DNA of 64,000 bases from Nitrosopumilales archaeon. GTDB lineage: Archaea; Thermoproteota; Nitrososphaeria; Nitrososphaerales; Nitrososphaeraceae. The stretch covers positions 1-64,000 of the forward strand of contig JBIQJB010000011.1 in the NCBI GenBank assembly GCA_044507735.1, written 5' to 3'. How positions within the stretch are numbered: the stretch's first letter is position 1; every line of letters starts with the position of its first letter. Positions 2,905 through 37,195 of the stretch are shown one piece after another. The notes below the pieces were generated by a model. The model did no database searches and had not been told where the DNA came from. It worked only from the letters and a program-made list of their open reading frames with translations. The translations under genes were made by a program, and so were the position numbers.

Positions 2905-2921
2905 GGTCTCATAACGACCGC

Positions 2922-5806: not shown

Positions 5807-5823
5807 GGGTGCAACATTCCATC

Positions 5824-16463: not shown

Positions 16464-16510
16464 ATGAATCTAGTCTATGGCTTGCATAAAAGCAAACTAG
16501 ATTATTGCAG

Positions 16511-16969
16511 TCAGTAAATCTCTACGATTAGTGTAGGCTGGATTTGAATTGGCTTTATCCTTCTTGAGTTCGGTCCTTGACTGACTATTTCGTAGATAAG
16601 CCTCCACAAACACTTATCCTCTTCTGAAAGTGTATTGTCAACATCACAGTAGTCCCTGACTCTTGGATCTTTTGATGCGGCTATCTTGATAGCATCAACT
16701 AACGCAATAGGTCTGCCTGCATCTTTGATTGCCTGCGCAATAGAATTGTAAACTGCGCCTTGCTCATCAACTGTGACCAATCTTCGGCCATCACAACTAA
16801 ATTCAGGCTCCCCTGCGCAATTATGGCAGCTAGTTACCCACCTCTTCTTCCGGCCCCGGGCATAGAACACTTCTATCGGAACGATGCTGGATGTATAGCA
16901 GTTGCAGTATTCGCACACTCGACTACTATATGCAGTAGCAAGATCCTTTGTCAGCACTCTGCAAAACAC
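16511..16969 (-). CDS. Small Zn-finger protein downstream of terL (copy A)
   Basis: CEYC...CHNC. A homologue at 25590-25978 occupies the same position. Confidence 0.7.
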   Translation of the reverse strand: MFCRVLTKDLATAYSSRVCEYCNCYTSSIVPIEVFYARGRKKRWVTSCHNCAGEPEFSCDGRRLVTVDEQGAVYNSIAQAIKDAGRPIALVDAIKIAASKDPRVRDYCDVDNTLSEEDKCLWRLIYEIVSQGPNSRRIKPIQIQPTLIVEIY

Positions 16970-16975
16970 TCCTTA

Positions 16976-18425: not shown

Positions 18426-19005
18426 TCTGTGCTTTTGTCCCGGACTTTAATGCCCTTTCATCAGCTTTAGCTCTTACGGTTGTTGCTTGCTTGTCAGCGG
18501 CGGAAGACTGTTCTGATAGTCTTCTACCTCCCTCTTCGACAAATCTGACTGCGTCGTCGACCACGGAGCAATTCGTAAGCATGTCCATTGTGGTTGAAGC
18601 GCAGTCTTTAACAAGAGCCAACGCCTGTAGCTTCAACTTGTCATTTGCCGCCTGCTCTGCGATAACCCACGCGTTCCTGCGGACAGCAGTCAACGCCGCC
18701 AGGCATTTTTCAAACTCTAGCGGCAGCTTATCCTCTACATAATGTCTGATGTTGTAACCGGCCTGCTCTCTGAGAAAAGCAAAGTCGCGGCTGACGGTTG
18801 ATTCGTCAACTTGGAGTTTTGCGGCTATCTCCTTCTGGTTGAAACCCTGACTTGAATATTCCAACACCTTGCTTCTTCTCCATTCTATCTGCTGTTGCAC
18901 CTTCCAAGTCATTTCTTGCCTCTCCCAGAAATTGCGATGATGTGCGAGTGCAAACTCGATTGCCGCAAGTCCGTTTCTGTCCGCAATTCGACCTATCTCC
19001 ACCAT
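18346..19005 (-). CDS. HTH protein, putative terminase small subunit (copy A)
   Basis: EWRRSKVLEYSSQGFNQKEIAAKLQVDESTVSRD HTH, directly upstream of and overlapping terL. Confidence 0.65.
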   Translation of the reverse strand: MVEIGRIADRNGLAAIEFALAHHRNFWERQEMTWKVQQQIEWRRSKVLEYSSQGFNQKEIAAKLQVDESTVSRDFAFLREQAGYNIRHYVEDKLPLEFEKCLAALTAVRRNAWVIAEQAANDKLKLQALALVKDCASTTMDMLTNCSVVDDAVRFVEEGGRRLSEQSSAADKQATTVRAKADERALKSGTKAQIDLPGLEKKAASVSAGRTATTANKVF

Positions 19006-25019: not shown

Positions 25020-25291
25020 CGGTGGTATAGATCAAGATTATGTGTTATATAAATCCGAGAATACTCGTGAGATGAGAAAACATTCAAACTGATTCAGCTT
25101 GACGACTCCAAAGCTAACAGACTAGGTAATTCGAGCTTGGAAAAAGGGTTCAGCAGTTTACTATCTTGGTAAAATCTCACGACAAATCTATGCTTCCTCT
25201 GAATCTATGTTTCGACGTTAATTTGCATTAAATTTTTTGATGATCGATAATATTTCTGAAATTATTGGAATTAAACATTCAAGAAAGCAGG

Positions 25292-25590
25292 CTAAACATA
25301 AAAAACATCAGGCGTCTACACAAGGAATTACAAACTCAAACTCATTGAAAGCAGCAGCGGATCCTCAACTCCTCTTCCAAAACTTTCATTTGATAGTAGA
25401 CTGGTTATGGCTCCATCGATTCTTGACAGAATCCTAAGTGATATTGAGGTTGTATCTAACAAGATAACGATTGAGACACCCGGAAACAGACAACTATTGT
25501 GCACTACAATGGGCGATTCCGGTGAAGCTATTGTTTCATTGGATGACGGAAGTGGAATAGAAAACTTGAATGAAATATCAGTTACCAAAC
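25292..25590 (+). pseudogene. Internal remnant of a second PCNA gene
   Basis: Nucleotide and protein similarity to ~15993-16290 (NYKLKLIES..STPLPKLSFDSRLVMAPSILDRILSDI...NLNEISVTK). Both ends are missing. Confidence 0.85.
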
Positions 25591-25978
25591 TGACAATTTC
25601 ATAAATAAGCTTCCACAAACACCTATCTCCTTCTGAAAATGTGTTGTCAACGCCAAAATAGTGCCTGACCTTTGGATATTCCAACGCGGCAATTTTTATG
25701 GCATCAATCAAGGCAATAGGTCTGCCAACATCCTCGATTTGTTTGATTAAATCATAAACTTGTCCCTGCTCGTCAACCGTGACCAACCTACGACTGTCTT
25801 CCTGGAATGCGGGATCAGCAGCGCACTCAGAACAAGCAGTAACCCATCGTTTCTTTCTACCTCTGCAGTAGAACAATTCTATCGGAAACGTGTTTTGGTT
25901 GTAGCGGCCGCAGTATTCACAAATCTTACTGCGGTAAGCTGCATCCAAGTCCCTAATTAGCATTTTGCGCAAAAACAC
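25590..25978 (-). pseudogene. Zn-finger protein copy B, 3'-truncated and reading through into the antisense of the PCNA remnant
   Basis: Homologous to 16511-16969 up to LIYEIVS. The rest of ORF 25328-25978 is antisense PCNA sequence. Confidence 0.7.
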
Positions 25979-25990
25979 CTCTTCTTGCTG

Positions 25991-27439
25991 CTATGCGACC
26001 TCGTAGTATTTCATTGCTAACCTGAATGCGTCAAAAGTATCATTGTAAGAAGTGGATGCCTTGTCTAGCACTCCATTCTGTTCAATTGCCGTTCTAAGTG
26101 AAGTTATCAATTTGTTAAAGCTAGGATGAATGGCAACAAGGCCCTTTTCTAGGAACACCTTGGTATTGCCAAGCATTTCCTTGTGTTCTGAATTGAATGA
26201 TACTGGCACAACCTTCATCCAGTAGACTGGATCGCTGTAATGTTTTTTGATATACGATATTTCCGCTTCATAATCCGTATCCTCACCCAGCACACGCTTT
26301 AGCCCTGTTATTATTGCCGGATTAGCAGCATCGGTAAAGACCTTATCAACATTGTAGTTCGTTACAAGCTGCCAGGCTTTGTCAATCATCTCGTTAAAGT
26401 CAGGGCGTTCAAATTCGTCTGCGTATAGAACCTCCACCCTCTCATTTCGCATCTGTGTTAGAACAAAAGCAAACTTTGAAGAGCCAAATGCCGGATCAAT
26501 GCCAAGCGACTTTGGAGTCTTGGGGTTGACAACGTCGGGATCGTATTGCCTGCCAAATGCAATTGCCCTTTCGATATCTTTTTGATGAAATACATTGCCG
26601 ATCTTGCCAATGTATTTCAGGTTATATTCCCGGTCAAATGATGGAGAGCCCATCGCCTTTTCAATTTCTTCTTTAGTGTAGATCTTGTTTATTCCGTAGG
26701 TATAGTCAAGATATAAGCGGTGGTAAAGGCATTCTTCGTCTGGCTCTTTTTCTATCTGCTCAAATAATCCTTCTGGAGCATTGGGAGTCGATACCATTAC
26801 AATGTAAGGGTCAGACTTTGCAATGTAGCGTTCGCTCACATCCCTAGCATCCTGCTGCTGTCCCGGAGGGAAAAAGTCCGCCTCATCGAGTAATATGAGG
26901 GCGACGTCTGTCAAACCACGCATGGCATCAAGATGGTGTGAAGGATAGGCTTCGATCTTGACGCCATTTAATTCCCCGACTGTTTCCTTTGTGTTAAATG
27001 GCAATGCCGGAAACAGATTCTTTATCCGTCCGATCAAAGTTATCGCCAGATCGATTCGCGGTCCTGTAACAATGCATATTCTGCTACCCTTCAGATTGTC
27101 GTCTTTCAGGCAAAGCCAAGCAATGTAACGGAGCATAAATTCAGTAATTCCAAGGCCAGTCGCCTTTTTGATCCAAAGATACTTTGACTTGCGCAGCGCC
27201 TGATAGACTTCTTTTTCATAATCAAACAGCGGCAGCTCGCTACCATTCTTCTGTGGCAAGCCAATAATATGGTTAAAGCAACAATTGCCGCCAGTTGCAA
27301 TGTCTGTCACTTTATGCCGCTCGACATTCCAGTACCAGAAAGGCTTGCCCCTTAATCTATCAAAAAACCTTGTTTGCTGTTGTTGCTGTTCCGCCAGCGC
27401 TGATGTTCGAATTCTTTTCTGAAGCTCCTTGAATGTCAT
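25991..27439 (-). CDS. Terminase large subunit (intact, copy B)
   Basis: KKATGLGIT (deviant Walker A), LILLDEA (Walker B), VSTPN (motif III), and LGIDPA plus YNDTFDAFR (RNase H-like nuclease). Confidence 0.85.
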   Translation of the reverse strand: MTFKELQKRIRTSALAEQQQQQTRFFDRLRGKPFWYWNVERHKVTDIATGGNCCFNHIIGLPQKNGSELPLFDYEKEVYQALRKSKYLWIKKATGLGITEFMLRYIAWLCLKDDNLKGSRICIVTGPRIDLAITLIGRIKNLFPALPFNTKETVGELNGVKIEAYPSHHLDAMRGLTDVALILLDEADFFPPGQQQDARDVSERYIAKSDPYIVMVSTPNAPEGLFEQIEKEPDEECLYHRLYLDYTYGINKIYTKEEIEKAMGSPSFDREYNLKYIGKIGNVFHQKDIERAIAFGRQYDPDVVNPKTPKSLGIDPAFGSSKFAFVLTQMRNERVEVLYADEFERPDFNEMIDKAWQLVTNYNVDKVFTDAANPAIITGLKRVLGEDTDYEAEISYIKKHYSDPVYWMKVVPVSFNSEHKEMLGNTKVFLEKGLVAIHPSFNKLITSLRTAIEQNGVLDKASTSYNDTFDAFRLAMKYYEVA

Positions 27440-28067
27440 TCCCTTTTTCTACTCGAGAGGGGCGATGCGGATTATCAGACCCAGAATTAAATGCGCTATT
27501 ATCAGCTTTAGCTCTTACTGTTGTTGTCTGTTGCTGAGAGGTCAGTTTTGTAGTAGCAGCCGCAGCCTCTTCTATGAACCGAATAGCCTCGTCTACAATT
27601 GCACTATTTGTCAGAAGTTCCATTGTAGTTGAAGCACATTCTTTTACAAGCGATAGAGCCTGAATTTTTAGTTTGCCATCAGTCGATTGCTGCGCAACTA
27701 TCCACGCATCCCTTCTTACAGCATTCAAAGCAGTTACGCATTTTTCAAATTCTAGAGGCAATCTTTCCTCTATGAAATGCCGGATGTTATTCCGCGCTTG
27801 TTCTCTTAAGAATGCGAGGTCGCGGCTGACTGTTGATTCATCGACCTGCAATTTGGCGGCTATCTCTTTTTGGCTAAAGCCCTGGCTTGCATATTCTAAC
27901 ACCTTGCTTCGTCTCCACTCGAGCTGCAGTTGCAACCTCCAAGTCAAAAATTGCACCGCCACCTTTTTACAAAATCTTGCCCATGTGGATTCCACCACGA
28001 TCTGTCCGTTATTGTCCGCAAAGTATCCTTCTACAGCCAATTTTACGTCATCCTGAGCTATAACCAT
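27360..28067 (-). CDS. HTH protein, putative terminase small subunit (copy B)
   Basis: EWRRSKVLEYASQGFSQKEIAAKLQVDESTVSRD. Start placed at ATG 28067, downstream of the T-tract; overlaps terL. Confidence 0.65.
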   Translation of the reverse strand: MVIAQDDVKLAVEGYFADNNGQIVVESTWARFCKKVAVQFLTWRLQLQLEWRRSKVLEYASQGFSQKEIAAKLQVDESTVSRDLAFLREQARNNIRHFIEERLPLEFEKCVTALNAVRRDAWIVAQQSTDGKLKIQALSLVKECASTTMELLTNSAIVDEAIRFIEEAAAATTKLTSQQQTTTVRAKADNSAFNSGSDNPHRPSRVEKGNDIQGASEKNSNISAGGTATTANKVF

Positions 28068-28096
28068 TTGCAGCCTGCCATCGTATTCATGTTTGG

Positions 28097-28115
28097 AAAA
28101 AAGAAAAAAGGGGGG
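28097..28115 (-). terminator. Archaeal oligo-T terminator-like tract after the putative SSB gene
   Basis: CCCCCCTTTTTTCTTTTTT on the minus strand just after the stop at 28129. Confidence 0.5.
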
Positions 28116-28128
28116 AGTGTCAGCGCCA

Positions 28129-28476
28129 TCATGCTGGCACGAATGTATAGTTTGTGTCAAGACCGGCTCCGCGCCTGCTTGCCTTGATGTTCGTGTATCC
28201 CGCCTTGAGAAGCGCATTCAGGGCCAGAGCCCACTGTAGCGAGAGTGTCAGCACCTTTTGCTGATTGTCAGGAGTTACGACAGTATATTCCACTGCCTTG
28301 CTTTTTCTCCCGTTAATCTCGCGCTCGATAGGCTTGAACTTTGTCTTGTCGAACTTCAGTTGCACGGTTTGACCCGGCTGAATCTTGAGGAATTTCGACT
28401 GGCTTGCGGCTAGCGCTTCTATCTGTGCAAAGGGATCACTTTCTTGCTGTGACCTTGCTTCTGATGTCGTACTCAT
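28129..28476 (-). CDS. Putative single-stranded DNA-binding (OB-fold-like) protein
   Basis: KFLKIQPGQTVQLKF...IKASRRGAGLDTNYTFVP resembles the FLKL..GE / RxGxGxDTxY pattern of viral SSBs. Purine-rich RBS before ATG 28476; lies directly after the polymerase. Confidence 0.55.
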   Translation of the reverse strand: MSTTSEARSQQESDPFAQIEALAASQSKFLKIQPGQTVQLKFDKTKFKPIEREINGRKSKAVEYTVVTPDNQQKVLTLSLQWALALNALLKAGYTNIKASRRGAGLDTNYTFVPA

Positions 28477-28569
28477 TTCCTTTCTCCTCTTTTGTATCTT
28501 GGTTGGCAGCTGTTTGTCAGTCACCAGCCCCGCGACGAGGACGCCGCTGCCATACAGGGCCACTAGTGG

Positions 28570-31500
28570 CTATGCGTGTGCATCTCCCACCTCAACTCCC
28601 TGCTCTCTAGACGCTTTGCCAATGCGCCTGCTTTTTTTCCGAGTGGTACCATGATCAATTTTGAAAATCGATAACGCGATGCTATCTTCAGATCCGTGTC
28701 CCAGGATTACAAGCGGGTCTTTGAGGGTCGCAAACAGTGCCTTCTTGTATTCTGATACGCTAATGTCCTCGGGGTTGACTGGAATCGCATCTTTGTTCCC
28801 GTTAGGCATGGATTTGTAAAAGCAAATGACGTCGCCCTTCTTTGCCCCAACATGAAGGCCAACTCTTTTCTGTATCGTATTAGTTGCATATTCTGCGGGA
28901 TCCTTTGACAACGTCACGCAAATTTTCAGATCATCGGGAGCCACTCGCCTTGACTCCAAGTCATCAATTGCTCGCTTGATGTTAATTGTGGGATCGACCC
29001 CGTCCCGGAAGTCCTGAACAAGTTGGTCAAAGGTGCGCGTCACCCAGCGCGGCCTGTCACTTTTCTTACCCTCCATGCCCTTGACAACAGGCTGGCCGGT
29101 GCTGCTGTCAATGCCGATATAGTGCTTCTTCTTTATGTTGAGGAATTTACGAAATGTCCTTTGGTGTTCAACTTCGACGCCAAGTTCCTGCTGGCACCTA
29201 TCAATGAACCTCTGTAGAGACTCGTCACTCCCAGCAGAAAGGAAGAGAGAGTCTGTATCCCCAGCGCAAGTTTCAAAGCCGTATTCTTTGGCAAGGGTTT
29301 GCATGTGGCGAAGTGTGTACCTGCCGTATGCGGTGACCAACTCAGCCACCCGTTTGTCATAGTATTTGAACCCAGGATAGGCGAAGACTCCATACCCAGC
29401 ATTAATTAAAATCTTGAGCCCTCTGTCCTTGATCTTGTTACCAAGTTTCTTCTGCTTCAATCGCTCTTCACGGTAGCCGCTGAGCTTTGAAGGAAAGGCA
29501 CCTTGTTTTCGTTGGCAGATCCAATATCCTTTGGGATCAATCGTCTCGTCGCCAAGCACAACCTTTGCACTTGGCACGTCTCTGCAGCAGCCACAGTTCA
29601 CAGTGTCAAATGAAATATTGTAAGAGATAGCCACGGTAGGATAAAGGCTGGCGACATCCACTACCCTTACGTTGTCATAATTCCCAAGTCGTGGTTCAAG
29701 TACAAGGCCGCCTTCATATCTTGATCCGTCTGTAAGCTGCAATTCAAAAGCAGGTCTTGTGCATCCCATTTTGTCAAAAACATGAGCCCACCAGTTGGAA
29801 AGCCCGGTATGACATACATGCTCAAAGTCTAGCTCGATTAGCTCTGAAATTGCCTGCATAAGGTCAAGCACCTGCCCATCATTGACTTGCGCCAGCTCGA
29901 GGGCAAGCTGTGCGTCCTGTAAGACGTACTGCTTTTGTGTTGAAACTGACTCTCCTTCTACTGTTGCACCGGTTATCCCCCGGTGTTTTCCTTTTTCCAA
30001 AAGTGCCTGAGCGACGTCTTCCAGCTTGAGTGACCTATACTTGTTCTCAAAAATTGAGGACTTGACAAGCTCTTTATCGAAAATCCTGTAGAGGTCGATG
30101 TGTGTTTTTCCCTTGATAGAAGGGCAAAGGCTTGATGATATGTCGACAGGCGATACAATTCCGTTGGCCACGCATCTTTCATGCAATATGAGTAGGTCTG
30201 ATTCCTGCCCGGTAGTATACCATCCAACCGACAGCATCGGTAGCTGATCGAAGCGGTGCACTATCGCCTGCATTAGTGCCGCTTCAGAGTTACCGAAGTC
30301 GGCAATATGTAGTGCCTCGCTCCAGCCGAGATTATCGACAAAGCCAGCCGCAAAGAGCATTGCACCATTCTTGTCATCTCCCCGCCGCCATTCGAGGTCC
30401 AGCGCGCTTATTCGAATATTCGTTTTTGCTCCAGCGAATGATTTCGTCGAGACTTCGCTCTCACTTTTTGTAATTTCTTCTGTCGGGATACTATGAGTAT
30501 GTGAATGTTGAGCATCTCGGGTTCTTGCCACTTGTTCTTTGTGACCGGTGTTTTGCTGCGCGACGCCAGCCAAAGCATGGTTGCAAACACCACTGCCTGC
30601 TTCGCTGCTGGCGCCATAGCCGCCTTCGATCTTAACCCGGTTGTCCTTACTGTCGCCGGAAGCGTTGTCGCAGGGGGCACGGTCGTCGTGACTGTCGTCT
30701 GTCTTATGAAAATAGTCCTCGGGGTGCGAATAATATCGCTCCACCAGCTGCTCGATGGTCACTTGCCGGCCGTCATGATCAAGTATCGCCACTGAATAGC
30801 CCTTGTCAGAATAATGTCCTGCAGTGCGCCATATTACAGAGATTAGATAATTCTTATCAGGAAATTGTGCATTTTTTCCAAGATGCAGCTTCAAATATTT
30901 TGCATCGTTGTTCGATTCTCCCTTTTCGAACAAGCGAATGTTGCCGGATGACAGAATCGGCCAATATATCTTGGCCTTGCCATTGATCTCGCTATCTTTA
31001 CTGTCGATGTAGCCGATGTTATGCAGTGGGTAGATGTAGCGCTCCAGAAGCTGCTGTGTCGACAGGTCTCTGCCGGTGTATTGCTTTGTCGGCTCTTTTA
31101 GCTGCTCTGTCGTAACTGCAATCCTGCTTTCTTCAATCGTTTGGTTCGTCTTTTTGTTAATCTTGAAGTCAGGGTTTTTCTTTCGTTCATAGGCAGGCAG
31201 GAAGACTTCATGATACCATTCGAGAACGTACGGCTTTGTGCCATCACCGTACTCCATCAGCGATATTGCTTCCCTCAAGTCGTCAAAAATCGCAAACGGC
31301 ACAACTACAACTCCTGCTGCGCGTGTGTCCGACCCGGCAACATCTTGGTGGTTGGCGTCGTCGCCCTCCGGCACTGGAGTAGCCACGAGTTTGGGCCGCC
31401 TGTCCTTGTAAATCACCGGAAGCAACGAAAGATAAGTAAAAAGCCTGTAAGCAGTGGTCATGTCAAACGCCTTTTGCCCCGGAAGGGAGCGCGAAACAAC

Positions 31501-33948
31501 CCCATGGTAAGGAATAAGTACGTTGTTTTTGCCCGGCTCTTGACCCCCGTTAAATTCAAGCAGGGCTTGCTTGAGGGCTTCAATTACCAGCCGGACGGTC
31601 TTTTTTTCAGCATCGCTCACGACTTCGGCCTGATAGGCGACATCGGGCAGGCCGTGCCTGCTCGCTATAAGGTCGATGGCTTCTTGGTATTTTTTCGGGG
31701 CCATTTTTGGATTGGTCGTGATAAACCTACGCTGAATCTCTGGGTATCTTCGGTCGCGGGTAATATCCAGAGCCTGAGCAAAAATCACCGCCGGCCACCC
31801 TCTTAAGACGTTGCTCCGGGTCTCGATGCCATCGTACGTGTCCACGAATTCATATTCGACCTCATACTTGTCATGGGACAGAAGAGGCATCAACTGTGAC
31901 AGCAAAGTAGGGCTGGGTGTATCGAGAAAGAGCAAAATTTTATTTTTAAGGCTTATCATTTTCTTCGCTTGGCTGAACAGTTCAGTGCGCTGGTTCTTTA
32001 GATCCAGTATTTCATTTTCAAGGCCTCTGGCTTGGCCATTCTCGCTGTCAGCATTTCCGGCGTGATTTTTATCCTCCTCGTGACCAGCAGTATTGTCCGC
32101 GACTCTGCTCTGATCTATGCTGTTTTTGCTGCTGCTTGCAGCCCTGCTTACGCCTGCTTTCTTTTTTTCCACCAGTTCATGCAGCCTTTTTGTTTTCTCT
32201 GCTATTGCCCCATTAATCTCGGCTATCTTGGGCATCAACGGTTCGTATTCTTTGGTTTCAGGATTTTTGACTACAAGCACTCCGCGCCTATGGAACAGAG
32301 CCTTGTCTGTCATGCCAACAAGGTGCAGCACATCGTCAGAAGGGAACTTCTCGGCTACCTTGTTGATGACATAGTTTTTGCCTTCACCTGACGGGGCGTT
32401 GATGCACATGTTGAGCGGATTGTTTGTGTATGCACTAAGCATAGCGATGAACAACTGCTTTGCAAGCAGGTCCTCTTGTCGAGCTTCCTTGACGATGCTG
32501 GCAAGGCAGAACTGCACAGGATTGTCCCGCATAGCCGGCGAATTCAGTACCAGCTGCTGGTACTTCGTCATAGCGTCGGCAATCGGTGTCGTTGATGCGC
32601 AATCTTCTGTTGCTGTCGGCGCGGCAGCCCTTGCTACTGCATTTTTTGCAGCCGAATCCGGTTTTGCTGCCTTTGGCTCCGGTGCATATATTATCTTCAT
32701 GATATTGGATACTATTTCATATGCAGCATGCGGATCCCCGTTAACATGGGCAAGGATTTGAACTAAGGCTCCCGTCCCAGCAACAGCCTTGCCCGAGATT
32801 CCATTCTTGTATGTGTTTTGGACTACGGCGAGCCTCTGTTGCTTTTCAAGGTCGTCGGTATAGTCACAGAGTGCCGCCACAATATTCTCTGCGCTTGGCT
32901 GCGAAATGTCACACATGAACAGCGCGCCAGACAAGGGAAAGCAGATCTCATCTCGGTATCCCTGCCTGTAAGATGGGAGAATGTATGACACAATCTTCTC
33001 TTCCTTCTGACGGCTGAGGACTTTGAACCTGCTGCCTGAATTGCTAACAGCACCGTGGTCGCGCTCGTTTTGTCCAGCGCTAGTTCGGCTAGTTCCTGTT
33101 ATGGTTCTGTCGCCAACAGCGGAGCTGTTGACTATTGCGCCATCTCCTGTAAGGGCTCTGATCTCTGTTTTCTTCCTCTCGCTGATAAGATATGGAGCCA
33201 ATATTGTTCCTGCCAGGAACAGATAGAGTCCGTTCAGTGGCACAATCCTATCAGTGCGCCCAATTGCAGAATACGTAAAGCCGGCATCGTCACGATGAGT
33301 TGACGGCGGCAGCGTAAGGGCAGAGCTCGATTTGTTAGTCTTGATTTCAAAGCCATACCCGTGTTCACAGTCGCGGCTGTGTATTGCCGGAAAGAGTTTT
33401 TCCTCCAGCCAGTAAAAATGAAACCCGTATGGTTTTCTTGACTTTGTAACATAGGTAATGCGTCTTAAGGCATCTAAGAGGGAGAATTGTGCCGTTTCAC
33501 CTGATGATGATAGCATTGCAAGAATGTCTGCCGTGACTGAGTCTGGCTTCAAGGAGGCAGATTCAAAGAGCATCCGTGCGAGTTCAGACGACAGTTTAGA
33601 CTTGGGGGCGATGGGGGAAGTGAAGATCTTTGCGACATTCTCGCTGTCGCAGTCAAAGCCGCACAAGTAGTAATGCTTTCCATTGGGTCCAACTAGTCGC
33701 GTGCGACCAAAGATCGTTGCAATGCCCTTGATGGCCGAACCATCCTCGGTCAGTTTGTCAGGGTGTATATCCTCTGGATGCTCATACGAATGCGACCACT
33801 TTGCCACTGGCCTTCCGCCGGCTCCAAGGGCGACAAGCTTGAAACCAATGTCATGCAGCTTGTCAACTGCAGCCTGTGGGATGCGGTCATCATTTGGCTT
33901 GGGTAGCGACCCCACTGCTGTCGTCATGTTCGGTCGGTTAACCTCCAT
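28570..33948 (-). CDS. 1792-aa fusion: Prim-Pol primase + AAA+/P-loop ATPase + 3'-5' exonuclease + family-B DNA polymerase
   Basis: GFDCD, KSRKPYGFHFY, LPPSTH (Prim-Pol); APSGEGKN, LLFLD, IQRRF (ATPase); ALDLEW, YVLQDA (exo); YEGGLVLEP, DVASLYP, KILINAGYG, GDTDS, KKHY, KGME (PolB). Confidence 0.88.
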   Translation of the reverse strand: MEVNRPNMTTAVGSLPKPNDDRIPQAAVDKLHDIGFKLVALGAGGRPVAKWSHSYEHPEDIHPDKLTEDGSAIKGIATIFGRTRLVGPNGKHYYLCGFDCDSENVAKIFTSPIAPKSKLSSELARMLFESASLKPDSVTADILAMLSSSGETAQFSLLDALRRITYVTKSRKPYGFHFYWLEEKLFPAIHSRDCEHGYGFEIKTNKSSSALTLPPSTHRDDAGFTYSAIGRTDRIVPLNGLYLFLAGTILAPYLISERKKTEIRALTGDGAIVNSSAVGDRTITGTSRTSAGQNERDHGAVSNSGSRFKVLSRQKEEKIVSYILPSYRQGYRDEICFPLSGALFMCDISQPSAENIVAALCDYTDDLEKQQRLAVVQNTYKNGISGKAVAGTGALVQILAHVNGDPHAAYEIVSNIMKIIYAPEPKAAKPDSAAKNAVARAAAPTATEDCASTTPIADAMTKYQQLVLNSPAMRDNPVQFCLASIVKEARQEDLLAKQLFIAMLSAYTNNPLNMCINAPSGEGKNYVINKVAEKFPSDDVLHLVGMTDKALFHRRGVLVVKNPETKEYEPLMPKIAEINGAIAEKTKRLHELVEKKKAGVSRAASSSKNSIDQSRVADNTAGHEEDKNHAGNADSENGQARGLENEILDLKNQRTELFSQAKKMISLKNKILLFLDTPSPTLLSQLMPLLSHDKYEVEYEFVDTYDGIETRSNVLRGWPAVIFAQALDITRDRRYPEIQRRFITTNPKMAPKKYQEAIDLIASRHGLPDVAYQAEVVSDAEKKTVRLVIEALKQALLEFNGGQEPGKNNVLIPYHGVVSRSLPGQKAFDMTTAYRLFTYLSLLPVIYKDRRPKLVATPVPEGDDANHQDVAGSDTRAAGVVVVPFAIFDDLREAISLMEYGDGTKPYVLEWYHEVFLPAYERKKNPDFKINKKTNQTIEESRIAVTTEQLKEPTKQYTGRDLSTQQLLERYIYPLHNIGYIDSKDSEINGKAKIYWPILSSGNIRLFEKGESNNDAKYLKLHLGKNAQFPDKNYLISVIWRTAGHYSDKGYSVAILDHDGRQVTIEQLVERYYSHPEDYFHKTDDSHDDRAPCDNASGDSKDNRVKIEGGYGASSEAGSGVCNHALAGVAQQNTGHKEQVARTRDAQHSHTHSIPTEEITKSESEVSTKSFAGAKTNIRISALDLEWRRGDDKNGAMLFAAGFVDNLGWSEALHIADFGNSEAALMQAIVHRFDQLPMLSVGWYTTGQESDLLILHERCVANGIVSPVDISSSLCPSIKGKTHIDLYRIFDKELVKSSIFENKYRSLKLEDVAQALLEKGKHRGITGATVEGESVSTQKQYVLQDAQLALELAQVNDGQVLDLMQAISELIELDFEHVCHTGLSNWWAHVFDKMGCTRPAFELQLTDGSRYEGGLVLEPRLGNYDNVRVVDVASLYPTVAISYNISFDTVNCGCCRDVPSAKVVLGDETIDPKGYWICQRKQGAFPSKLSGYREERLKQKKLGNKIKDRGLKILINAGYGVFAYPGFKYYDKRVAELVTAYGRYTLRHMQTLAKEYGFETCAGDTDSLFLSAGSDESLQRFIDRCQQELGVEVEHQRTFRKFLNIKKKHYIGIDSSTGQPVVKGMEGKKSDRPRWVTRTFDQLVQDFRDGVDPTINIKRAIDDLESRRVAPDDLKICVTLSKDPAEYATNTIQKRVGLHVGAKKGDVICFYKSMPNGNKDAIPVNPEDISVSEYKKALFATLKDPLVILGHGSEDSIALSIFKIDHGTTRKKSRRIGKASREQGVEVGDAHA

Positions 33949-34136
33949 TTCAGTCGCGCAATGTCATCTCTCAACTCGCGCAGTAGTCGCCCTTGCTTTG
34001 TCAGCTCGTCCTGCATTTCATCGACCTGAGCAACAAGCCAATCGATCCGACGGGATTCGTAACGGAGTTTTTCCGGGATGGCGTTTTTTTGGGACTCGTT
34101 CGAATTGAGCTTCTTAGTATCGTCAATCAATGTCAA
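33924..34136 (-). CDS. Small coiled-coil protein
   Basis: TTG start overlaps the upstream stop (TTGA). Heptad-like RRIDWLVAQVDEMQDEL..LLRELRDDIARL. Confidence 0.55.
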   Translation of the reverse strand: MTLIDDTKKLNSNESQKNAIPEKLRYESRRIDWLVAQVDEMQDELTKQGRLLRELRDDIARLKWRLTDRT

Positions 34137-34312
34137 TCTACCCACTCCTCCTTGCCATTGATTGTTGGCGCTTGATGGTCGCACTTCTCACAGGAGCAGA
34201 CTATCCTGTGCCCGGTCAGCTCGTTTACGTATACGCCCGCACAGTTGCCGCAACCCTTTAGGCAGCTAGTGACGACTATATCTGGAAGGCCGGCTTTTGG
34301 CGCGGAATTCAT
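34133..34312 (-). CDS. 59-aa Cys-rich (Zn-finger-like) protein
   Basis: Below the ORF-track cutoff. MNSAPKAGLPDIVVTSCLKGCGNCAGVYVNELTGHRIVCSCEKCDH..., with ATGA overlap to the upstream gene. Confidence 0.6.
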   Translation of the reverse strand: MNSAPKAGLPDIVVTSCLKGCGNCAGVYVNELTGHRIVCSCEKCDHQAPTINGKEEWVD

Positions 34313-34467
34313 TGTCGTTGCCTGTCTCCAAAGGTTGCATCTAACTTGCGTGCCCGGTCAGCCTCTCTGAGCAGCCGCTTGACGATGTCGTCCATGCTGT
34401 CGGCCCACTTGCCATGCGCGGCCAGCTGTTTGTAAGTTGAATCGCTCAACTTGATTAACTTCCCCAA
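34309..34467 (-). CDS. 52-aa ribbon-helix-helix regulator
   Basis: Below the ORF-track cutoff. TTG start, MGKLIKLSDSTYKQLAAHGKWADSMDDIVKRLL, a typical archaeal RHH pattern. Confidence 0.7.
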   Translation of the reverse strand: MGKLIKLSDSTYKQLAAHGKWADSMDDIVKRLLREADRARKLDATFGDRQRQ

Positions 34468-34530
34468 ATCAGTGTACGGATTAAACCTTAATACGAAAAG
34501 ACGTAGTGGTAACTAGTAACCGTACTTACC

Positions 34531-35613
34531 ATGACCCAGTACGACCATGATATCGATGATGCCATTATTTCATACTTGTACAAGAAGGAAAAGGCTAATT
34601 TTTCCCAACTAGTTCAGCATGTCAGCCGCCGCATGCAGAGGCGAATATCAAATAAGGTTCTTAGCAACCACCTCAAGAGGCTAAAGCAGGAGAGGATAAT
34701 CAGAAGAGACGAAGAAAGTGCAGGGGTTGAGAGATTTTCATATCTAACAAAGTTGGCACGGCAGCAGCTCGATTTGGGAATTCCAGTCCGTGTCAAAACC
34801 AAAAGCGAACAGAGAATCGCTGCATTGGATCGAGCGGACATAGAAGACATGGCAGATAACAGAAAGCGGATGTATCAGCTGCTATTTTTTATTGCATCGT
34901 CAGGAGCGGGGCGCCTGAAACCAAGCCCAAAGCCTGAACCGGGAGACATTGGTGTGTATGGTCCTGATGGCAAACTGATGGCATATTCCTACTATGACAT
35001 ACCGGGTGTTGGCGCGTCGGATTTTTCAGTCGAGCCGAGAGAAATTATTGGCCAAGCAGGAGCATTGACACATGTTTCTGACCTTTCACAGTCCGAGGTT
35101 GCAGCCTTGTTTGACATGCTTTTAAAAGAGAATCCGCCGCTGATAAGACCAATAGACGAGGTTGGAGGAGAGACAAGGTATGGAATCGCTGACAGGTTGC
35201 TGTCAGAGTATATCTCAGACTGTTGGACCCTTTTCCCATCGGTGCAATCAAGGCTAGAGGAAACATGGCAATACGTACGCAAGCCTGAGAATGAGGAGGA
35301 GATAGGATGGTATGTCTTTTTTTATGGAAAGAGAAAGGCAAAGAGCTTTTTTGCAAAGGCACAAGAAACCAGAAGGTATTCAAAAGCAGACAGCAAGATA
35401 AGAAAATCTTTCGAAAAGAGCATAAGGGATTGGGATACAGCAATACAGCACCGACTATACGGGTGGCGCGACGAGAAAGGCACGCATCATTCTGGGATAT
35501 ATAAAAAGTACGGAAGAACCATTATGAAAAAGTACAAGTTTCCTGCGCAAGTCTTGCTGGAAATGATATATCCAAAGTTCCTTAAAAAATTGCAGAAAGA
35601 AAAAAGGATCTAG
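34531..35613 (+). CDS. Winged-HTH domain protein, putative element regulator
   Basis: IDDAIISYL..KANFSQL...ISNKVLSNHLKRLKQERII wHTH; divergent from the RHH-led operon. Confidence 0.72.
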   Translation: MTQYDHDIDDAIISYLYKKEKANFSQLVQHVSRRMQRRISNKVLSNHLKRLKQERIIRRDEESAGVERFSYLTKLARQQLDLGIPVRVKTKSEQRIAALDRADIEDMADNRKRMYQLLFFIASSGAGRLKPSPKPEPGDIGVYGPDGKLMAYSYYDIPGVGASDFSVEPREIIGQAGALTHVSDLSQSEVAALFDMLLKENPPLIRPIDEVGGETRYGIADRLLSEYISDCWTLFPSVQSRLEETWQYVRKPENEEEIGWYVFFYGKRKAKSFFAKAQETRRYSKADSKIRKSFEKSIRDWDTAIQHRLYGWRDEKGTHHSGIYKKYGRTIMKKYKFPAQVLLEMIYPKFLKKLQKEKRI

Positions 35614-36977
35614 GATGGCAGAGACTCTGCCACGGGTTTGTAGCACCCTTTTTCGATTAGTTGCCTTGCCATTCTTTTTCTTGTGTCATCATCAGCGTCT
35701 GCCATGATCCCTACCATTGCTTGGAGCATAGCAAATGTCTCTTCCTGCTTCTGTTCTAGCGCACGCATTCTTCCGGTCTCGCCTGCCTTAATTTCTTCAT
35801 ATGCTTGCGCAGTCAATGGGTAGCTGCAGCCTAAGCAGAGTCTCGAATCTATAGTATTGACAAGCTTGCAGCGCGGGCAGCCAAGGACGACAGGCTTGCT
35901 TTGCGCTGACTCGTCTTCGACCAGTATACCATCCCTTATGAGGATCTGCTTCTTGACAGCCTCGCCCATGCGCCTCTTGATATACCTTGAAGCCTGCTTT
36001 GAGTTCATTGACCAGCGCACTTTTCGCTTCAAAGCATAATCTGGCAGCAGGTCGCTATCAAAAGTAATTGCAGAATGCCGGATGCAGTAGGGATTCCATT
36101 TTTTGGTACGCAATAGATACTCGAGCTTTTCTCTTTGATTGAGGTCTGTTATCGATCCTTCCTTTAGCATTCGCTCGATTCTTTGTCGGAGCCGCTTCAT
36201 CATTCCCCACATTGCCTCCGGCCTTACAGCGGTTCCGTCATAGAGGTTGCAAATGAGCCGCGCTTCAGGGTCGTCTTTAAGCGGATGCAAATTCAGCCAG
36301 TCGCGTACAAACGGAAACGAGCAGGTCAGCAGGATAGGTCCGCCGCCGGTTTTTGTGTTGTATGGGATCTCGCCCTCGGCCCAGCGCTCCCTGAGCCTGA
36401 CATTCTTTATCTTGAGCATAGTGACTTCATGGTTTCTGGCATCCAAGTCCCAGAAAAGCGTCAGTGCTGCCTTGTTTCGCGCCTTGGGCTCATACTTGAC
36501 AATGGAGAGCAGCTCATCCCTGTCCCAGATTTCATTTTCAGAGTATGGGCTGAGCCTCTTTGTCCTCTTTTCTCTTATCCTTGCAAAGGGCGGAGTCTCC
36601 CAGTCTGCCATTATTTCAGGGTCTTCGTCGATATCGTCTTTTCCTCTCTGGTTATAGAGCCACCTGTAAAAGAGCTTGATTCGCCGCAGGTAGTGGTTGT
36701 ACGTCGTTATCCACTTCTTTTCCGGGTCTTGCTCAGGAGGCTTGACTTTTGTGTCCAGAAACGCCGCAATCTGGCTTTTTTGCTGGACGTCAAAGAACGT
36801 TGTGTCTGGCCCAAGAAAGTTGGCGTAGGCAATTGCTACCTTGAGGTTGTTGTTTTGGTGTTGCTCCGACGAGCCCCTTGCCTTCATGTAGGCGCGAAAC
36901 TCGTCGATAATTGCCGCATTGGTTTGGTTTGGCACAAGTGCTATCTTTGAGACGGTTGTTGTCAGCTTTGCCGGCAT
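35610..36977 (-). CDS. Tyrosine recombinase/integrase
   Basis: WDLDARNHE (Arg), PYCIRHS, SRYI (Tyr), C-terminal CPRC..CLGC Zn ribbon; adjacent to the tRNA. Confidence 0.92.
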   Translation of the reverse strand: MPAKLTTTVSKIALVPNQTNAAIIDEFRAYMKARGSSEQHQNNNLKVAIAYANFLGPDTTFFDVQQKSQIAAFLDTKVKPPEQDPEKKWITTYNHYLRRIKLFYRWLYNQRGKDDIDEDPEIMADWETPPFARIREKRTKRLSPYSENEIWDRDELLSIVKYEPKARNKAALTLFWDLDARNHEVTMLKIKNVRLRERWAEGEIPYNTKTGGGPILLTCSFPFVRDWLNLHPLKDDPEARLICNLYDGTAVRPEAMWGMMKRLRQRIERMLKEGSITDLNQREKLEYLLRTKKWNPYCIRHSAITFDSDLLPDYALKRKVRWSMNSKQASRYIKRRMGEAVKKQILIRDGILVEDESAQSKPVVLGCPRCKLVNTIDSRLCLGCSYPLTAQAYEEIKAGETGRMRALEQKQEETFAMLQAMVGIMADADDDTRKRMARQLIEKGCYKPVAESLPS

Positions 36978-37092: not shown

Positions 37093-37195
37093 TGGTGGGG
37101 CCAGTGGGATTTGAACCCACGATCTCCAGCGCCCCAGGCTCGTCGGTTGTTTTTTGCAACCTCTGACATCCTAGACCAAGCTAGACTATGGCCCC
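37093..37195 (-). tRNA. tRNA-Pro(GGG) with encoded CCA and a 24-nt intron (37139-37162) at position 30/31
   Basis: Acceptor stem GGGGCCA/TGGCCCC and T-arm GTGGG-TTCAAAT-CCCAC. Removing the intron restores the anticodon arm TCAGC-CTGGGGC-GCTGG. Confidence 0.93.
37095..37113 (+). repeat. Right attachment site within the tRNA-Pro 3' end
   Basis: Identical to 1146-1164. Confidence 0.9.

What the first reader, a model, noticed from the sequence alone, without database searches (positions are those of the whole stretch)
25991..36977. Capsid-less, terminase-encoding integrative element: candidate archaeal virus satellite
Seen: gene order integrase, divergent wHTH/RHH regulators, small genes, primase-ATPase-PolB, SSB-like, HTH (TerS-like), TerL, Zn-finger. 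No recognisable major capsid, portal, protease or tail gene occurs anywhere between the att sites. Known: bacterial PICIs follow an int/regulator/pri-rep/terS layout and hijack helper-phage capsids. Inference: a PICI-like satellite of head-tail archaeal viruses that brings its own complete terminase and replicase. Alternatively, the TerL is repurposed, for example for resolving replication concatemers.
Basis: partly seen in the sequence, partly recalled or inferred. Interest (0 to 1): 0.85.

Follow-up and report, generated by a model that had tools for sequence, protein, structure and literature searches.

The report
Capsid-less archaeal element carrying a viral terminase
An integrated mobile element in an ammonia-oxidising archaeon carries its own DNA replicase and a complete virus-type DNA-packaging enzyme but no capsid genes, so it may spread by stealing the capsids of a tailed virus, which is not shown here.

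Summary
The genes are real and in the stated order. They are a tyrosine integrase, divergent wHTH and RHH genes, a 1792-aa PrimPol/P-loop/PolB fusion, a TerS-like HTH gene, an intact TerL and a zinc-ribbon gene.

No capsid, portal, protease or tail gene was found by Pfam or PHROGs, either in the element or in the rest of the island.

The stated att sites are not confirmed. The integrase abuts an intron-bearing tRNA-Pro(GGG) at 37093-37195. The only other copy of its 19-nt 3' core lies at 1146-1164, which bounds a 36-kb composite island. This island also holds a decayed second PCNA/Zn/TerL/TerS copy. The TerL-side end of the intact copy is damaged.

TerL relatives occur in 44 of 77 sampled genomes of the family. 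Of 44 TerL-positive genomes tested, 37 lack both portal/capsid marker types. The window's TerL falls in a clade where 11 TerLs in genomic loci sit with integrases and replication genes and without those markers. The same clade also holds real viruses with TerS-TerL-Zn-portal.

A satellite-like role is plausible (about 0.4) but unproven. A relic terminase remains a strong rival. NitKor-E1 (2019) is the published precedent.

The parts
37093..37195 (-). tRNA-Pro(GGG) with a 24-nt intron. This is the integration target; its 3' end faces the integrase, 116 nt away. The 19-nt att core is 37095-37113.
   Evidence: aragorn with intron search. An Rfam tRNA-clan model matches, E 5.1e-10. Default ARAGORN and Rfam at gathering threshold missed it. 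The tRNA is conserved next to the ABC permease gene in relatives.
35610..36977 (-). Tyrosine integrase, 455 aa, with a C-terminal CxxC...CxxC tail.
   Evidence: phrog_216 E 4.6e-4. Conserved R181/K209/R300-H301/W322/Y332. XerA 4a8e E 0.018. Paralogues: 55% identity at window 9-1100, 29% on contig C17, and a decayed copy on C3.
34531..35613 (+). 360-aa protein with an N-terminal winged helix. The rest is of unknown fold.
   Evidence: HxlR E 4.7e-4. Atlas structure rows show a wHTH. Only 9 relatives in the 5.8-billion-cluster search. AF2 model pLDDT 55, mostly helical, not usable.
34309..34467 (-). 52-aa RHH / VapB-like regulator, divergent from the wHTH gene across 63 bp.
   Evidence: PF02697 E 3.6e-5. 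Homologues occur in L050 and L051.
33924..34312 (-). Two small ORFs of 86 and 59 aa, function unknown.
   Evidence: No family match.
33109..33948 (-). PrimPol (archaeo-eukaryotic primase)-like N-terminal domain of the 1792-aa replicase, aa 1-280.
   Evidence: Atlas score 0.97, 30 of 30 hits are PF09250 clusters. Invariant D99xD101 and H177. No Pfam or PDB sequence hit.
30649..32541 (-). Middle P-loop module of the replicase, about aa 470-1100; a presumed helicase/ATPase.
   Evidence: Invariant GEGKN. Stand-alone homologues in 59 of 150 genomes of the family. No named family, so 'ATPase' is inference.
28570..30411 (-). Family B DNA polymerase domain with an exonuclease motif, about aa 1180-1792.
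   Evidence: PF00136 E 1.1e-24. phrog_262 E 2.4e-35. PDB 1s5j E 4.5e-50. Only 2 other full-length fusions in the database, 59-60% identity.
28129..28563 (-). 144-aa ORF (core about aa 42-144) of a small conserved family. Function unknown; the 'SSB-like' label is not verified.
   Evidence: 69 representative relatives at E<=1e-3 and 17 at <=1e-10. No Pfam, PHROG, PADLOC or PDB match.
27360..28217 (-). TerS-like HTH protein. The conserved core starts near aa 93 (about 27360-27941). It overlaps the TerL start by 80 nt.
   Evidence: HTH families at E about 1e-4. Homologues lie directly upstream of TerL in L047 (separated from TerL by an inserted ORF on the other strand), L050, L055 and L061, and share a conserved C-terminal tail.
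25991..27439 (-). Large terminase subunit, 482 aa, intact.
   Evidence: phrog_2 E 1.4e-26. 44.9% identity to Pro-Nvie1 TerL. Conserved K92/G95/G97, D185-E186, S217-T218, D315, D370 and D467/D470.
25328..25978 (-). Zinc-ribbon (CxxC...CxxC) gene. Only 25589-25978 is native. The ORF then runs on into the antisense of the PCNA fragment.
   Evidence: 65% identity to the 152-aa copy at 16511-16969. A 291-bp deletion relative to copy A. No family match.
25266..25588 (+). Internal fragment of an element-borne PCNA gene, lacking about 95 N-terminal and 57 C-terminal codons. It marks a damaged left end.
   Evidence: 83% nt identity to 15967-16288. tblastn 86% identity with 1 TAA inside.
15681..19005 (-). 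Decayed second copy (A): intact PCNA 15681-16463 (+), Zn gene 16511-16969, TerL in three out-of-frame pieces 16976-18425, TerS-like gene 18346-19005.
   Evidence: Synonymous sites are saturated against copy B (pS about 0.75), so this is a separate, older acquisition and not a recent duplication.
1146..1164 (.). The only other copy of the 19-nt tRNA-Pro 3' core, next to a second integrase (3-1100). It is a candidate distal att of a 36-kb composite island, 1165-37094.
   Evidence: 2 exact matches in the window and 0 in 100 shuffles. Several other tRNA 3'-end-like fragments lie at 1128-1350.

Best explanation
Window 25.3-37.1 kb is an integrative, self-replicating mobile element. It is inserted at the 3' end of tRNA-Pro(GGG) by a tyrosine integrase. 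It encodes its own replicase, a single 1792-aa PrimPol / P-loop / PolB fusion. It also carries a head-tail-virus packaging block (TerS-like HTH, intact TerL, zinc-ribbon protein) but no capsid, portal, protease or tail gene.

SHOWN: the gene content, the tRNA junction, the absence of recognisable morphogenesis genes, the spread of the kind, and purifying selection on TerL.

INFERRED, the most likely way it works: after excision and replication, its own TerS recognises a site on the element. Its TerL cuts the DNA and pumps it into procapsids made by a co-infecting tailed virus of the related clade, docking on that virus's portal. On this reading it is a satellite that brings a whole terminase rather than only a TerS.

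This particular copy may be crippled. Its TerL-side end is truncated, and it lies in a 36-kb composite island with an older, decayed sister copy.
For: GENE CONTENT AND tRNA JUNCTION.

NO MORPHOGENESIS GENE FOUND.
- None among the 10 element ORFs.
- None among the 30 further ORF entries scanned on or beside the island, 3 of them beyond the tRNA.
- None in the genome: tblastn of 10 provirus proteins, phrog_267, a portal profile, and 44 virus ORFs.

TerL IS FUNCTIONAL-LOOKING. Walker A-like, Walker B and coupling motifs and three nuclease acidic positions are invariant in 17 sequences. dN/dS is 0.17, 0.04 and 0.06 between copies that both sit in capsid-less loci, and 0.01-0.10 between window copies A and B.

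SPREAD.
- 44 of 77 genomes of the family carry TerL relatives.
- The MCP profile hits 6 of 44 TerL-positive genomes and the second portal profile 1 of 44. That leaves 37 of 44 with neither.

TREE. A split with SH-aLRT 99 and FastTree support 1.0 puts all Pro-Nvie1-type proviruses on one side. The window lies on the other side, together with 10 more TerLs from loci that lack both markers.

NEIGHBOURS. These are integrases, a PriX primase, MCM+PolB and the same P-loop module. In a PHROG screen of 127 neighbouring ORFs, the 25 listed families were integrase, primase, helicase and methylase, with no head or tail family.

RECURRING COMPACT ORDER. TerL - Zn-ribbon - c7 - integrase recurs in 3 genomes of 2 genera: L051, L060 and L061. 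L049 holds the same genes with the Zn gene inverted and only integrase fragments 5 kb further on.

BACKBONE. Outside TerL and the Zn-ribbon gene, plus one TerS-position ORF (L084 with L049), the element loci share only 4 scattered ORF matches with the related viruses, within the 10 kb held on each side.
Against: - No excision, circular form or encapsidation was seen. The public runs are kept only as contigs and show no relevant joint.
- No helper is present in this genome, which is 97% complete.
- No att repeat lies at the TerL-side end. The PCNA gene there is a fragment and the Zn gene has lost its 3' end.
- The sister copy A has a broken TerL, and many TerL hits in relatives carry stop codons, so decay is frequent.
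- Portal-bearing virus contigs are nested among the capsid-less loci. L090/L131 group with L060/L061 at support 1.0. The capsid-less state could therefore have arisen by repeated loss.
- 61 of the 86 PHROG families hit in the neighbour screen were not displayed.
- Four island ORFs (3604-7479) and the 360-aa protein have no assigned fold.
- No capsid-less element of this kind turned up in the IMG/VR scans.
Confidence: 0.4

Rival explanations
1. Relic. The TerS-TerL block is what remains of a tailed provirus that lost its structural genes, or that recombined with an integrative plasmid-like element. It no longer packages anything. This is the reading given for NitKor-E1 in 2019.
For: - The 2019 paper calls the terminase of NitKor-E1 enigmatic and 'likely a relic' (PMC6563490, passages read).
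- Copy A in this window is already decayed.
- Many homologues in relatives are fragments with stop codons.
- The left end of copy B is truncated.
- Virus contigs with a portal are interleaved with capsid-less loci in the tree.
Against: - TerL is intact with all motifs.
- dN/dS is 0.04-0.17 between copies that are both in capsid-less settings.
- The same break point, just after TerL and the Zn-ribbon gene, recurs in several genera with a compact integrase end. Random decay does not predict that.
- 37 of 44 TerL-positive genomes lack both markers.
- Backbone genes are largely unshared with the related viruses.
Confidence: 0.3
2. Repurposed terminase. TerS and TerL are kept for a job other than transfer. 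Candidates are cutting the element's own replication concatemers into unit lengths, or interfering with an infecting virus by cutting its DNA or occupying its portals, which would be a defence role.
For: - The element makes its own PolB replicase.
- The island carries defence-type cargo: a type IIG-like methylase (E 1.8e-41) and an HKD+Snf2 protein (E 3.2e-45).
- TerL is under purifying selection without any capsid partner in the genome.
Against: Nothing here speaks directly for it. As far as I recall, no terminase is known to act outside packaging. The 2019 paper states that terminase had not been found in non-viral elements. The conserved TerS C-terminal tail and the TerS-TerL-Zn order are the same as in the related viruses.
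Confidence: 0.13
3. Complete but unrecognised virus. Capsid proteins of a novel fold or a very divergent sequence are encoded by unassigned ORFs of the 36-kb island.
For: - Portal and protease/scaffold-like proteins of the related virus contigs were invisible to Pfam and PHROGs. The portal was recognised only by fold.
- Unassigned ORFs exist: 3604-4374, 4646-5806, 5824-6975, 7030-7479 and the 360-aa protein.
Against: - Profiles and tblastn built from both local portal/capsid types find nothing in the genome.
- The 11.8-kb core has no ORF of portal size other than TerL and the integrase.
- The unassigned ORFs lie 20 kb away, behind a defence operon and the decayed copy.
Confidence: 0.07

Closest known systems
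NitKor-E1, a cryptic integrated element of Ca. Nitrosopumilus koreensis AR1 (Krupovic et al. 2019, PMC6563490; passages read)
   Same: A thaumarchaeal integrated element with a tyrosine integrase, TerS directly upstream of TerL, and no other tailed-virus gene. Its authors called it enigmatic.
   Different: As described, NitKor-E1 carries VapBC and a PD-(D/E)XK nuclease and no replicase. The window element has a PrimPol/P-loop/PolB fusion, a zinc-ribbon gene and PCNA. Homology of the two TerLs was not tested here. The 2019 paper reports five TerL hits in 20 genomes; here the pattern covers 44 of 77 genomes of one family. The paper's supplementary annotation files could not be opened.
Phage-inducible chromosomal islands (SaPI/PICI) and other bacterial phage satellites (recalled; abstracts of related papers seen in the listing)
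   Same: The layout is integrase, regulators, primase/replicase and packaging gene(s), with no capsid genes. The size is about 12 kb. Defence cargo lies nearby.
   Different: As I recall, classical PICIs carry only a TerS (or a redirecting protein) and use the helper's TerL; this element carries both subunits. It is archaeal, has a PolB replicase, and no helper or induction is known.
Capsid-forming PICIs (abstract of bioRxiv 10.1101/2022.09.08.507074 seen in the listing)
   Same: A satellite that brings its own packaging machinery rather than reprogramming the helper's.
   Different: By that abstract, cf-PICIs encode all proteins needed to make their capsids and to package, and take only tails. 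Here no capsid, portal or protease gene is present.
Nitrososphaera phage Pro-Nvie1 (FR725450.1) and like proviruses
   Same: TerL is 44.9% identical, from the same host family.
   Different: Pro-Nvie1 has an annotated portal, protease/MCP, major tail, tape measure and baseplate genes downstream of TerL. Its TerL type falls in the other clade of the tree.
Archaeal virus satellites pSSVx/pSSVi, haloarchaeal SRCEs, and the putative Asgard satellite NMV2S (preprints 10.1101/2025.02.15.638363 and 10.64898/2026.08.12.739948; passages read)
   Same: A plasmid-like replication backbone joined to an incomplete morphogenetic or packaging module.
   Different: pSSVx/pSSVi and the SRCEs are linked to spindle-shaped viruses and carry an AAA+ ATPase and/or a capsid protein. 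NMV2S is linked to a tailed virus but is described with a helicase-primase, a Cas4-like nuclease and an Arc-like regulator, and no terminase.
Casposons and other PolB-bearing thaumarchaeal elements (PMC6563490)
   Same: An integrated element with its own family B polymerase.
   Different: No Cas1 was found among the ORFs scanned. The PolB resembles primer-dependent archaeal PolB (1s5j) and is fused to a primase. Integration is by a tyrosine recombinase at a tRNA.

Membership tests
Large terminase subunit (TerL) of tailed viruses | Significant match to TerL profiles or to annotated TerL | tested here: met
   phrog_2 E 1.4e-26. Pro-Nvie1 TerL 44.9% identity, E 1e-116. No Pfam hit. PDB sequence and profile searches gave nothing significant.
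Large terminase subunit (TerL) of tailed viruses | ATPase motifs and RNase H-like nuclease acidic residues present | tested here: met
   K92/G95/G97, D185-E186, S217-T218, D315, D370 and D467/D470 are invariant or nearly so in 17 sequences. Assigning these positions to the named motifs rests on recall.
Large terminase subunit (TerL) of tailed viruses | Relatives sit next to portal and capsid genes | tested here: met
   Pro-Nvie1-type loci have TerL, portal and protease/MCP. Virus contigs of the window's own clade have TerL, a Zn gene and a portal; the top 50 listed Foldseek hits are all portals or portal-neck complexes, best E 1e-7.
Tailed provirus (Caudoviricetes) | Portal protein gene | tested here: not met
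   None by Pfam or PHROGs in the element or island. Portal profiles A3 and A9 find nothing in the genome.
Tailed provirus (Caudoviricetes) | HK97-fold major capsid protein gene | tested here: not met
   None by Pfam or PHROGs. phrog_267 and MCP profile A2 find nothing in the genome. tblastn gives none. Folds of the unassigned ORFs were not tested.
Tailed provirus (Caudoviricetes) | Tail genes | tested here: not met
   No tail family among the ORFs scanned.
Phage/virus satellite of PICI type | Integrase and a discrete att-bounded element | tested here: inconclusive
   The integrase and a tRNA-Pro junction are present. No repeat lies at the TerL-side end; the only second core copy is at 1146-1164, 36 kb away.
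Phage/virus satellite of PICI type | Own replication module | tested here: met
   PrimPol-like, P-loop and PolB domains in one ORF.
Phage/virus satellite of PICI type | Packaging gene(s) but no capsid-building genes | tested here: met
   A TerS-like gene and TerL are present. No capsid, portal or protease gene was found by sequence methods.
Phage/virus satellite of PICI type | Induction, excision and encapsidation depend on a helper virus | not testable with these tools
   The runs are held as contigs only and show no excision joint. No helper is in the genome.
Thaumarchaeal cryptic integrated element with terminase (NitKor-E1 kind) | Integrated element with an integrase, TerS upstream of TerL, and no other viral signature gene | tested here: met
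   set against the description read.
Thaumarchaeal cryptic integrated element with terminase (NitKor-E1 kind) | Sequence relationship to NitKor-E1 itself | not tested
   NitKor-E1 was not fetched. Weak TerL-like hits (24-31% identity) occur in genomes of the sister family, but these records are unnamed.
Casposon | Cas1 integrase | tested here: not met
   No Cas1 family among the ORFs scanned with Pfam.

The most novel reading that the evidence does not exclude
These satellites carry a complete terminase block (TerS, TerL, zinc-ribbon protein) on an integrative, self-replicating backbone. They take only procapsids and tails from the helper, and have repeatedly exchanged the terminase block with their helper viruses. 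This would be the first terminase-based satellite strategy in Archaea. It would also be a strategy intermediate between classical PICIs (TerS only) and capsid-forming PICIs.
Probability: 0.35. Interest if true: 0.8.

Novelty: new variant of a known kind. Interest (0 to 1): 0.62.

Why it matters
The 2019 survey of thaumarchaeal mobile elements stated that terminase had not been found in non-viral elements, and left its single case unexplained.

The present data point the other way. Such genes are intact, are under purifying selection, and are wired to integrases and replicases.

If these elements are packaged by tailed viruses, three things follow. They would be a new route of gene transfer in archaea important to the nitrogen cycle. 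They would be a new way for a satellite to hijack a helper, by bringing the whole motor. And they would confound provirus counts that rely on TerL as a hallmark gene.

The 1792-aa PrimPol/P-loop/PolB fusion is also rare. Only two other full-length examples were found in the 5.8-billion-cluster protein database.

Tried and rejected
tRNA AND att SEARCHES.
- Default ARAGORN and Rfam at gathering threshold found no tRNA. The tRNA appeared only with intron search and a looser Rfam threshold.
- Direct-repeat searches around 25 kb versus 37 kb gave only 9-mers.
- No tandem repeats in 15-37.5 kb.
- No att partner was found for the tRNA-Val / Int / TerS / TerL locus L052.

SEQUENCE SEARCHES THAT FOUND LITTLE OR NOTHING.
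- PDB sequence searches with the replicase N-terminus, its middle part and TerL: nothing.
- TerL profile against PDB: only weak hits.
- Profile of the 144-aa family against PDB: nothing significant.
- IMG/VR scan with the single TerL: nothing; the profile scan worked.
- Metagenome scan with the replicase: one partial PolB hit. Genome-collection scan: none.

STRUCTURE AND COMPARISON.
- The fold of the 360-aa protein had pLDDT 55, so no fold search was made with it.
- hhalign of the window's zinc-ribbon protein against the zinc-ribbon family found downstream of TerL elsewhere gave probability 2%. They are positional analogues only.
- Complex prediction of TerL with the TerS-like protein returned no verdict.

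READS.
- No RNA holder was listed.
- Only contigs could be laid and no relevant joint was seen. One contig of run X11 starts exactly at 37095, which is at best a weak hint of a variable junction.

TREE.
- The careful tree search did not finish. The quick IQ-TREE and a FastTree are reported instead.
- Row L041 (unpublished genome G230) was dropped from both trees.
- Viral TerLs over 85% identical were collapsed from 52 to 24 rows.

TOOLS AND FILES NOT AVAILABLE.
- Supplementary files of PMC6563490, which hold the full annotations of all 74 elements, could not be consulted. They may list further terminase-bearing elements.

CONSIDERED AND REJECTED.
- A recent in-situ duplication as the origin of copies A and B. 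Synonymous sites are saturated.
- A casposon. No Cas1 was found.

Full report
1. WHAT IS AT THE SITE

Reading the - strand from 36977 downwards:

- A 455-aa tyrosine recombinase. It matches phrog_216 at E 4.6e-4. R181, K209, R300/H301, W322 and Y332 are invariant in 4 sequences. A profile hits archaeal XerA 4a8e at E 0.018.
- A 360-aa winged-helix protein on the + strand, divergent from a 52-aa RHH/VapB-like gene.
- Two small ORFs.
- A 1792-aa protein.
- A 144-aa ORF.
- A 285-aa HTH protein.
- A 482-aa TerL.
- A CxxC...CxxC protein.

The large protein has three parts:
- A family B polymerase at its C-terminus (PF00136 E 1.1e-24; PDB 1s5j E 4.5e-50).
- A PrimPol-like N-terminus (Atlas score 0.97, 30 of 30 hits PF09250; invariant DxD and H). 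Pfam and PDB sequence searches do not see it.
- A middle part with an invariant P-loop and no named family.

TerL is secure. It matches phrog_2 at E 1.4e-26. It is 44.9% identical to the annotated TerL of Nitrososphaera phage Pro-Nvie1. Its ATPase and nuclease positions are conserved in a 17-sequence alignment.

The 'SSB-like' label for the 144-aa ORF has no support. That ORF does belong to a small conserved family: 69 representative relatives at E<=1e-3 and 17 at <=1e-10.

None of the ten ORFs matches a capsid, portal, protease or tail family.

2. BOUNDARIES

The integrase start lies 116 nt from the 3' end of a tRNA-Pro(GGG) gene at 37093-37195. This tRNA has a 24-nt intron. Default ARAGORN and Rfam at gathering threshold missed it. 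Intron-aware aragorn and a looser Rfam search found it.

This tRNA and the ABC transporter genes beyond it are conserved in the genus. The permease was found in 22 of 25 relatives (three of these genomes are flagged unpublished). The tRNA was seen in 13 of the 14 relatives' stretches beside that gene (L067 and L069-L081; no match in L078, a 1.1-kb stretch). What lies beyond the tRNA differs in every relative. Two relatives carry a repeat of the tRNA 3' part about 12.7 kb away. The site is therefore an integration hot spot.

In the window, the 19-nt 3' core of the tRNA occurs exactly once more, at 1146-1164 (0 matches in 100 shuffles). There it sits next to a second integrase, 55% identical, at the contig end. 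It lies amid several other tRNA 3'-end-like scraps. The repeat-bounded unit is therefore a 36-kb composite island, 1165-37094, and not the 11-kb stretch.

3. A SECOND, DECAYED COPY

Window 15967-18911 is a diverged copy (74-83% nt identity) of 25266-27946. It holds:
- an intact PCNA gene,
- a 152-aa zinc-ribbon gene,
- TerL broken into three frames,
- a TerS-like gene.

The genome has another PCNA elsewhere, 52% identical. The PCNA here therefore looks element-borne.

In the intact copy B, only an internal PCNA fragment remains. A 291-bp deletion has also removed the 3' end of the zinc-ribbon gene. The TerL-side end of copy B is thus damaged.

Synonymous sites between the two copies are saturated (pS about 0.75), while TerL protein identity is 80-90%. 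These are two old, separately acquired relatives, not a recent duplication.

The rest of the island carries:
- a type IIG-like methylase and an HKD+Snf2 protein,
- a cupredoxin protein and a PolB scrap,
- a broken metallo-beta-lactamase-fold gene,
- four unassigned ORFs.

No structural virus family was hit anywhere in it.

4. RELATIVES IN GENOMES

TerL relatives (E<=1e-5) were found in 60 of 401 sampled genomes of the class. By family the counts are 44 of 77 in the window's family, 12 of 224 in a second family and 3 of 10 in a third. Many hits are fragments with stop codons (three of the positive genomes are flagged unpublished and are part of these tallies).

I fetched up to 20 kb around 20 of these hits.

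Four loci, all in the window's genus, are proviruses. Each has TerL, then a 461-575-aa portal-type gene, then a 573-594-aa protein matching major head protein families (phrog_267, E 7e-11 to 6e-6). This is the layout annotated in Pro-Nvie1 as portal and protease/MCP.

A profile of that MCP hits 6 of 44 TerL-positive genomes of the family, all in the window's genus and not the window's own genome.

In the other loci, TerL sits with:
- a TerS-like gene directly upstream,
- tyrosine integrases,
- a PriX primase,
- MCM plus PolB,
- or the same P-loop module as in the window.

L051, L060 and L061 (three genomes of two genera) share the compact order TerL, zinc-ribbon gene, a 222-233-aa unknown (c7), integrase, with the Zn gene inverted in L060. 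L049 has the same genes, but with an inverted Zn gene and only integrase fragments further off. One locus is just tRNA-Val, integrase, TerS, TerL. One locus has two TerS-TerL modules in tandem.

A PHROG screen of 127 neighbouring ORFs listed integrase, primase, helicase and methylase families and no head or tail family. Only 25 of the 86 families hit were displayed.

5. TREE AND THE VIRUS RELATIVES

A quick IQ-TREE of 23 TerLs splits them with SH-aLRT 99 on both sides.
- One side (7 rows) holds all four MCP-linked proviruses.
- The other side (16 rows) holds the window and 10 more TerLs from loci with 9.6-20 kb of context. None of these loci has the portal or MCP.

An IMG/VR scan with the TerL profile gave 57 loci. 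By profile search, most of them carry the Pro-Nvie1-type portal and/or MCP. In a 47-row FastTree these fall in the provirus clade, support 1.0.

Seven long IMG/VR contigs fall in the window's clade. Six of them (L082, L084, L086, L090, L131, L134) share a conserved gene of 506-632 aa downstream of TerL. The seventh, L088, ends soon after TerL. Four of the six also share a protein with weak minor-head (MuF-like) matches (phrog_115, E 2.4e-7 and 6e-4), and three share a protease/scaffold-like protein.

Pfam and PHROGs do not recognise the 506-632-aa gene. An AF2 model of it has mean pLDDT 53, with well-modelled cores. Its Foldseek hits are portals or portal-neck complexes in all 50 top listed ranks, best E 1e-7, including Haloferax tailed virus 1.

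The window's clade therefore includes real tailed viruses. These are interleaved with the capsid-less loci: L090/L131 group with L060/L061 at support 1.0. The subclade of the window, L047 and the two L055 copies holds only capsid-less loci, support 0.91.

A profile of this second portal type hits 1 of 44 TerL-positive genomes, and not the window's. Adding the two marker searches, 37 of 44 TerL-positive genomes have neither marker. These are draft genomes, and only two marker types were tested.

Among the 44 virus ORFs downstream of TerL, only the small zinc-ribbon gene next to TerL clearly recurs in the genomic loci; four other matches are short stretches of unrelated ORFs. None of the 44 has a meaningful match in the window's genome. 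The window's own zinc-ribbon protein is not detectably homologous to that family (hhalign probability 2%). The likeness is positional only.

6. SELECTION

dN/dS for TerL:
- 0.17 and 0.04 between three copies in one genome, all in capsid-less loci,
- 0.06 between the tandem copies of another genome,
- 0.01-0.10 between window copies A and B.

Synonymous saturation makes several of these values rough. All are far below 1.

7. THE REPLICASE

Only two other full-length PrimPol/P-loop/PolB fusions (59-60% identity) were found in the large protein database. The middle module occurs as a stand-alone protein in 59 of 150 genomes of the family. The fusion therefore joins parts that are usually separate in local mobile elements.

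8. READING

What is shown: an integrative, self-replicating element at a tRNA hot spot carries an intact, selected terminase block and no recognisable morphogenesis gene, and this combination is common in its family.

What is inferred: the terminase packages the element's DNA into capsids of a co-infecting tailed virus of the related clade. I put this at about 0.4.

Evidence against, or missing:
- No excision or particle evidence. Only contigs could be laid, and they show no relevant joint.
- No helper in this genome.
- A damaged end and a decayed sister copy.
- Viruses nested among the capsid-less loci, which also fits repeated decay.

The main rival is a relic terminase, at 0.3. That is the published reading of the one precedent, NitKor-E1 (PMC6563490, passages). 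A search for that name finds no later paper.

Other archaeal satellites in print or preprint are the fusellovirus satellites, the haloarchaeal SRCEs and a putative Asgard satellite. None is described with a terminase (passages). A soil nitrifier virus study does not treat capsid-less TerL elements in the passages I saw.

9. VERDICT

- I file the element as a new variant of a known kind. It is a terminase-bearing cryptic integrated element of the NitKor-E1 sort, with a PICI-like layout. It differs in having a complete terminase, a fused primase-polymerase replicase, and a family-wide spread not previously reported in the papers I could search.

Noticed in passing
window 37093-37195 (-): tRNA-Pro(GGG) with a 24-nt intron. 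The default tRNA scan and Rfam's gathering threshold both missed it. Only intron-aware aragorn and a looser Rfam search found it.
   Followed up: yes
window 3-1100 (-) and 1128-1350: A second integrase (55% identical) is cut by the contig start. It is followed by several tRNA 3'-end-like scraps. This suggests repeated integrations at tRNA genes and a further element lying off the contig.
   Followed up: partly
window 8861-14995 (+): Two large genes in an operon: a type IIG-like restriction-methylase (PADLOC E 1.8e-41; also PglX- and DrmMI-like) and an HKD(PLD)+Snf2 helicase (candidate system C3a139, E 3.2e-45; DrmD-like). This is probably defence cargo of the island.
   Followed up: partly
window 15681-16463 (+): An extra, intact PCNA gene. 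It is 52% identical to the PCNA on contig C17 and is linked to the decayed terminase copy. A truncated copy lies at 25266-25588.
   Followed up: partly
window 5824-6975 (-), with 4646-5806, 3604-4374 and 7030-7479: A run of unassigned ORFs. The 383-aa one matches phrog_24372 (unknown function) at E 1.7e-31. No fold was tested.
   Followed up: no
window 7164-8665 (+): A metallo-beta-lactamase / RMMBL-fold gene is split into two overlapping frames (167 and 333 aa). Both match one 498-aa ORF in locus L066, so it is probably broken by a frameshift.
   Followed up: no
window 2862-3191 (+): An isolated 109-aa fragment of a family B DNA polymerase (PF00136 E 2.7e-4). It is not close to the element's PolB.
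   Followed up: no
window 1441-2541 (-); L051 3938-4891; L054 7630-8754: A secreted cupredoxin/plastocyanin-domain protein recurs near terminase-bearing loci in two other genomes.
   Followed up: no
L055 (G399:C315) 2249-7850: Two TerS-TerL modules in tandem, 80% identical at protein level with dN/dS 0.06. An MCM gene and a PolB gene lie 8 kb away.
   Followed up: partly
L052 (G301:C10) 7941-11608: A minimal arrangement of tRNA-Val, integrase, TerS and TerL, with nothing else recognisably mobile. No att partner was found in the 20 kb held.
   Followed up: partly
L086 11504-12013 (+): In one virus contig, the ORF just downstream of TerL has His/Asn-rich motifs that look HNH-like to my eye. This was not tested. 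In the other contigs that position holds a zinc-ribbon protein.
   Followed up: no
window 59911-60215 (+): Rfam match to the 5' ureB small RNA family (44.3 bits, gathering score 40), presumably over a urease gene. It is unrelated to the element.
   Followed up: no
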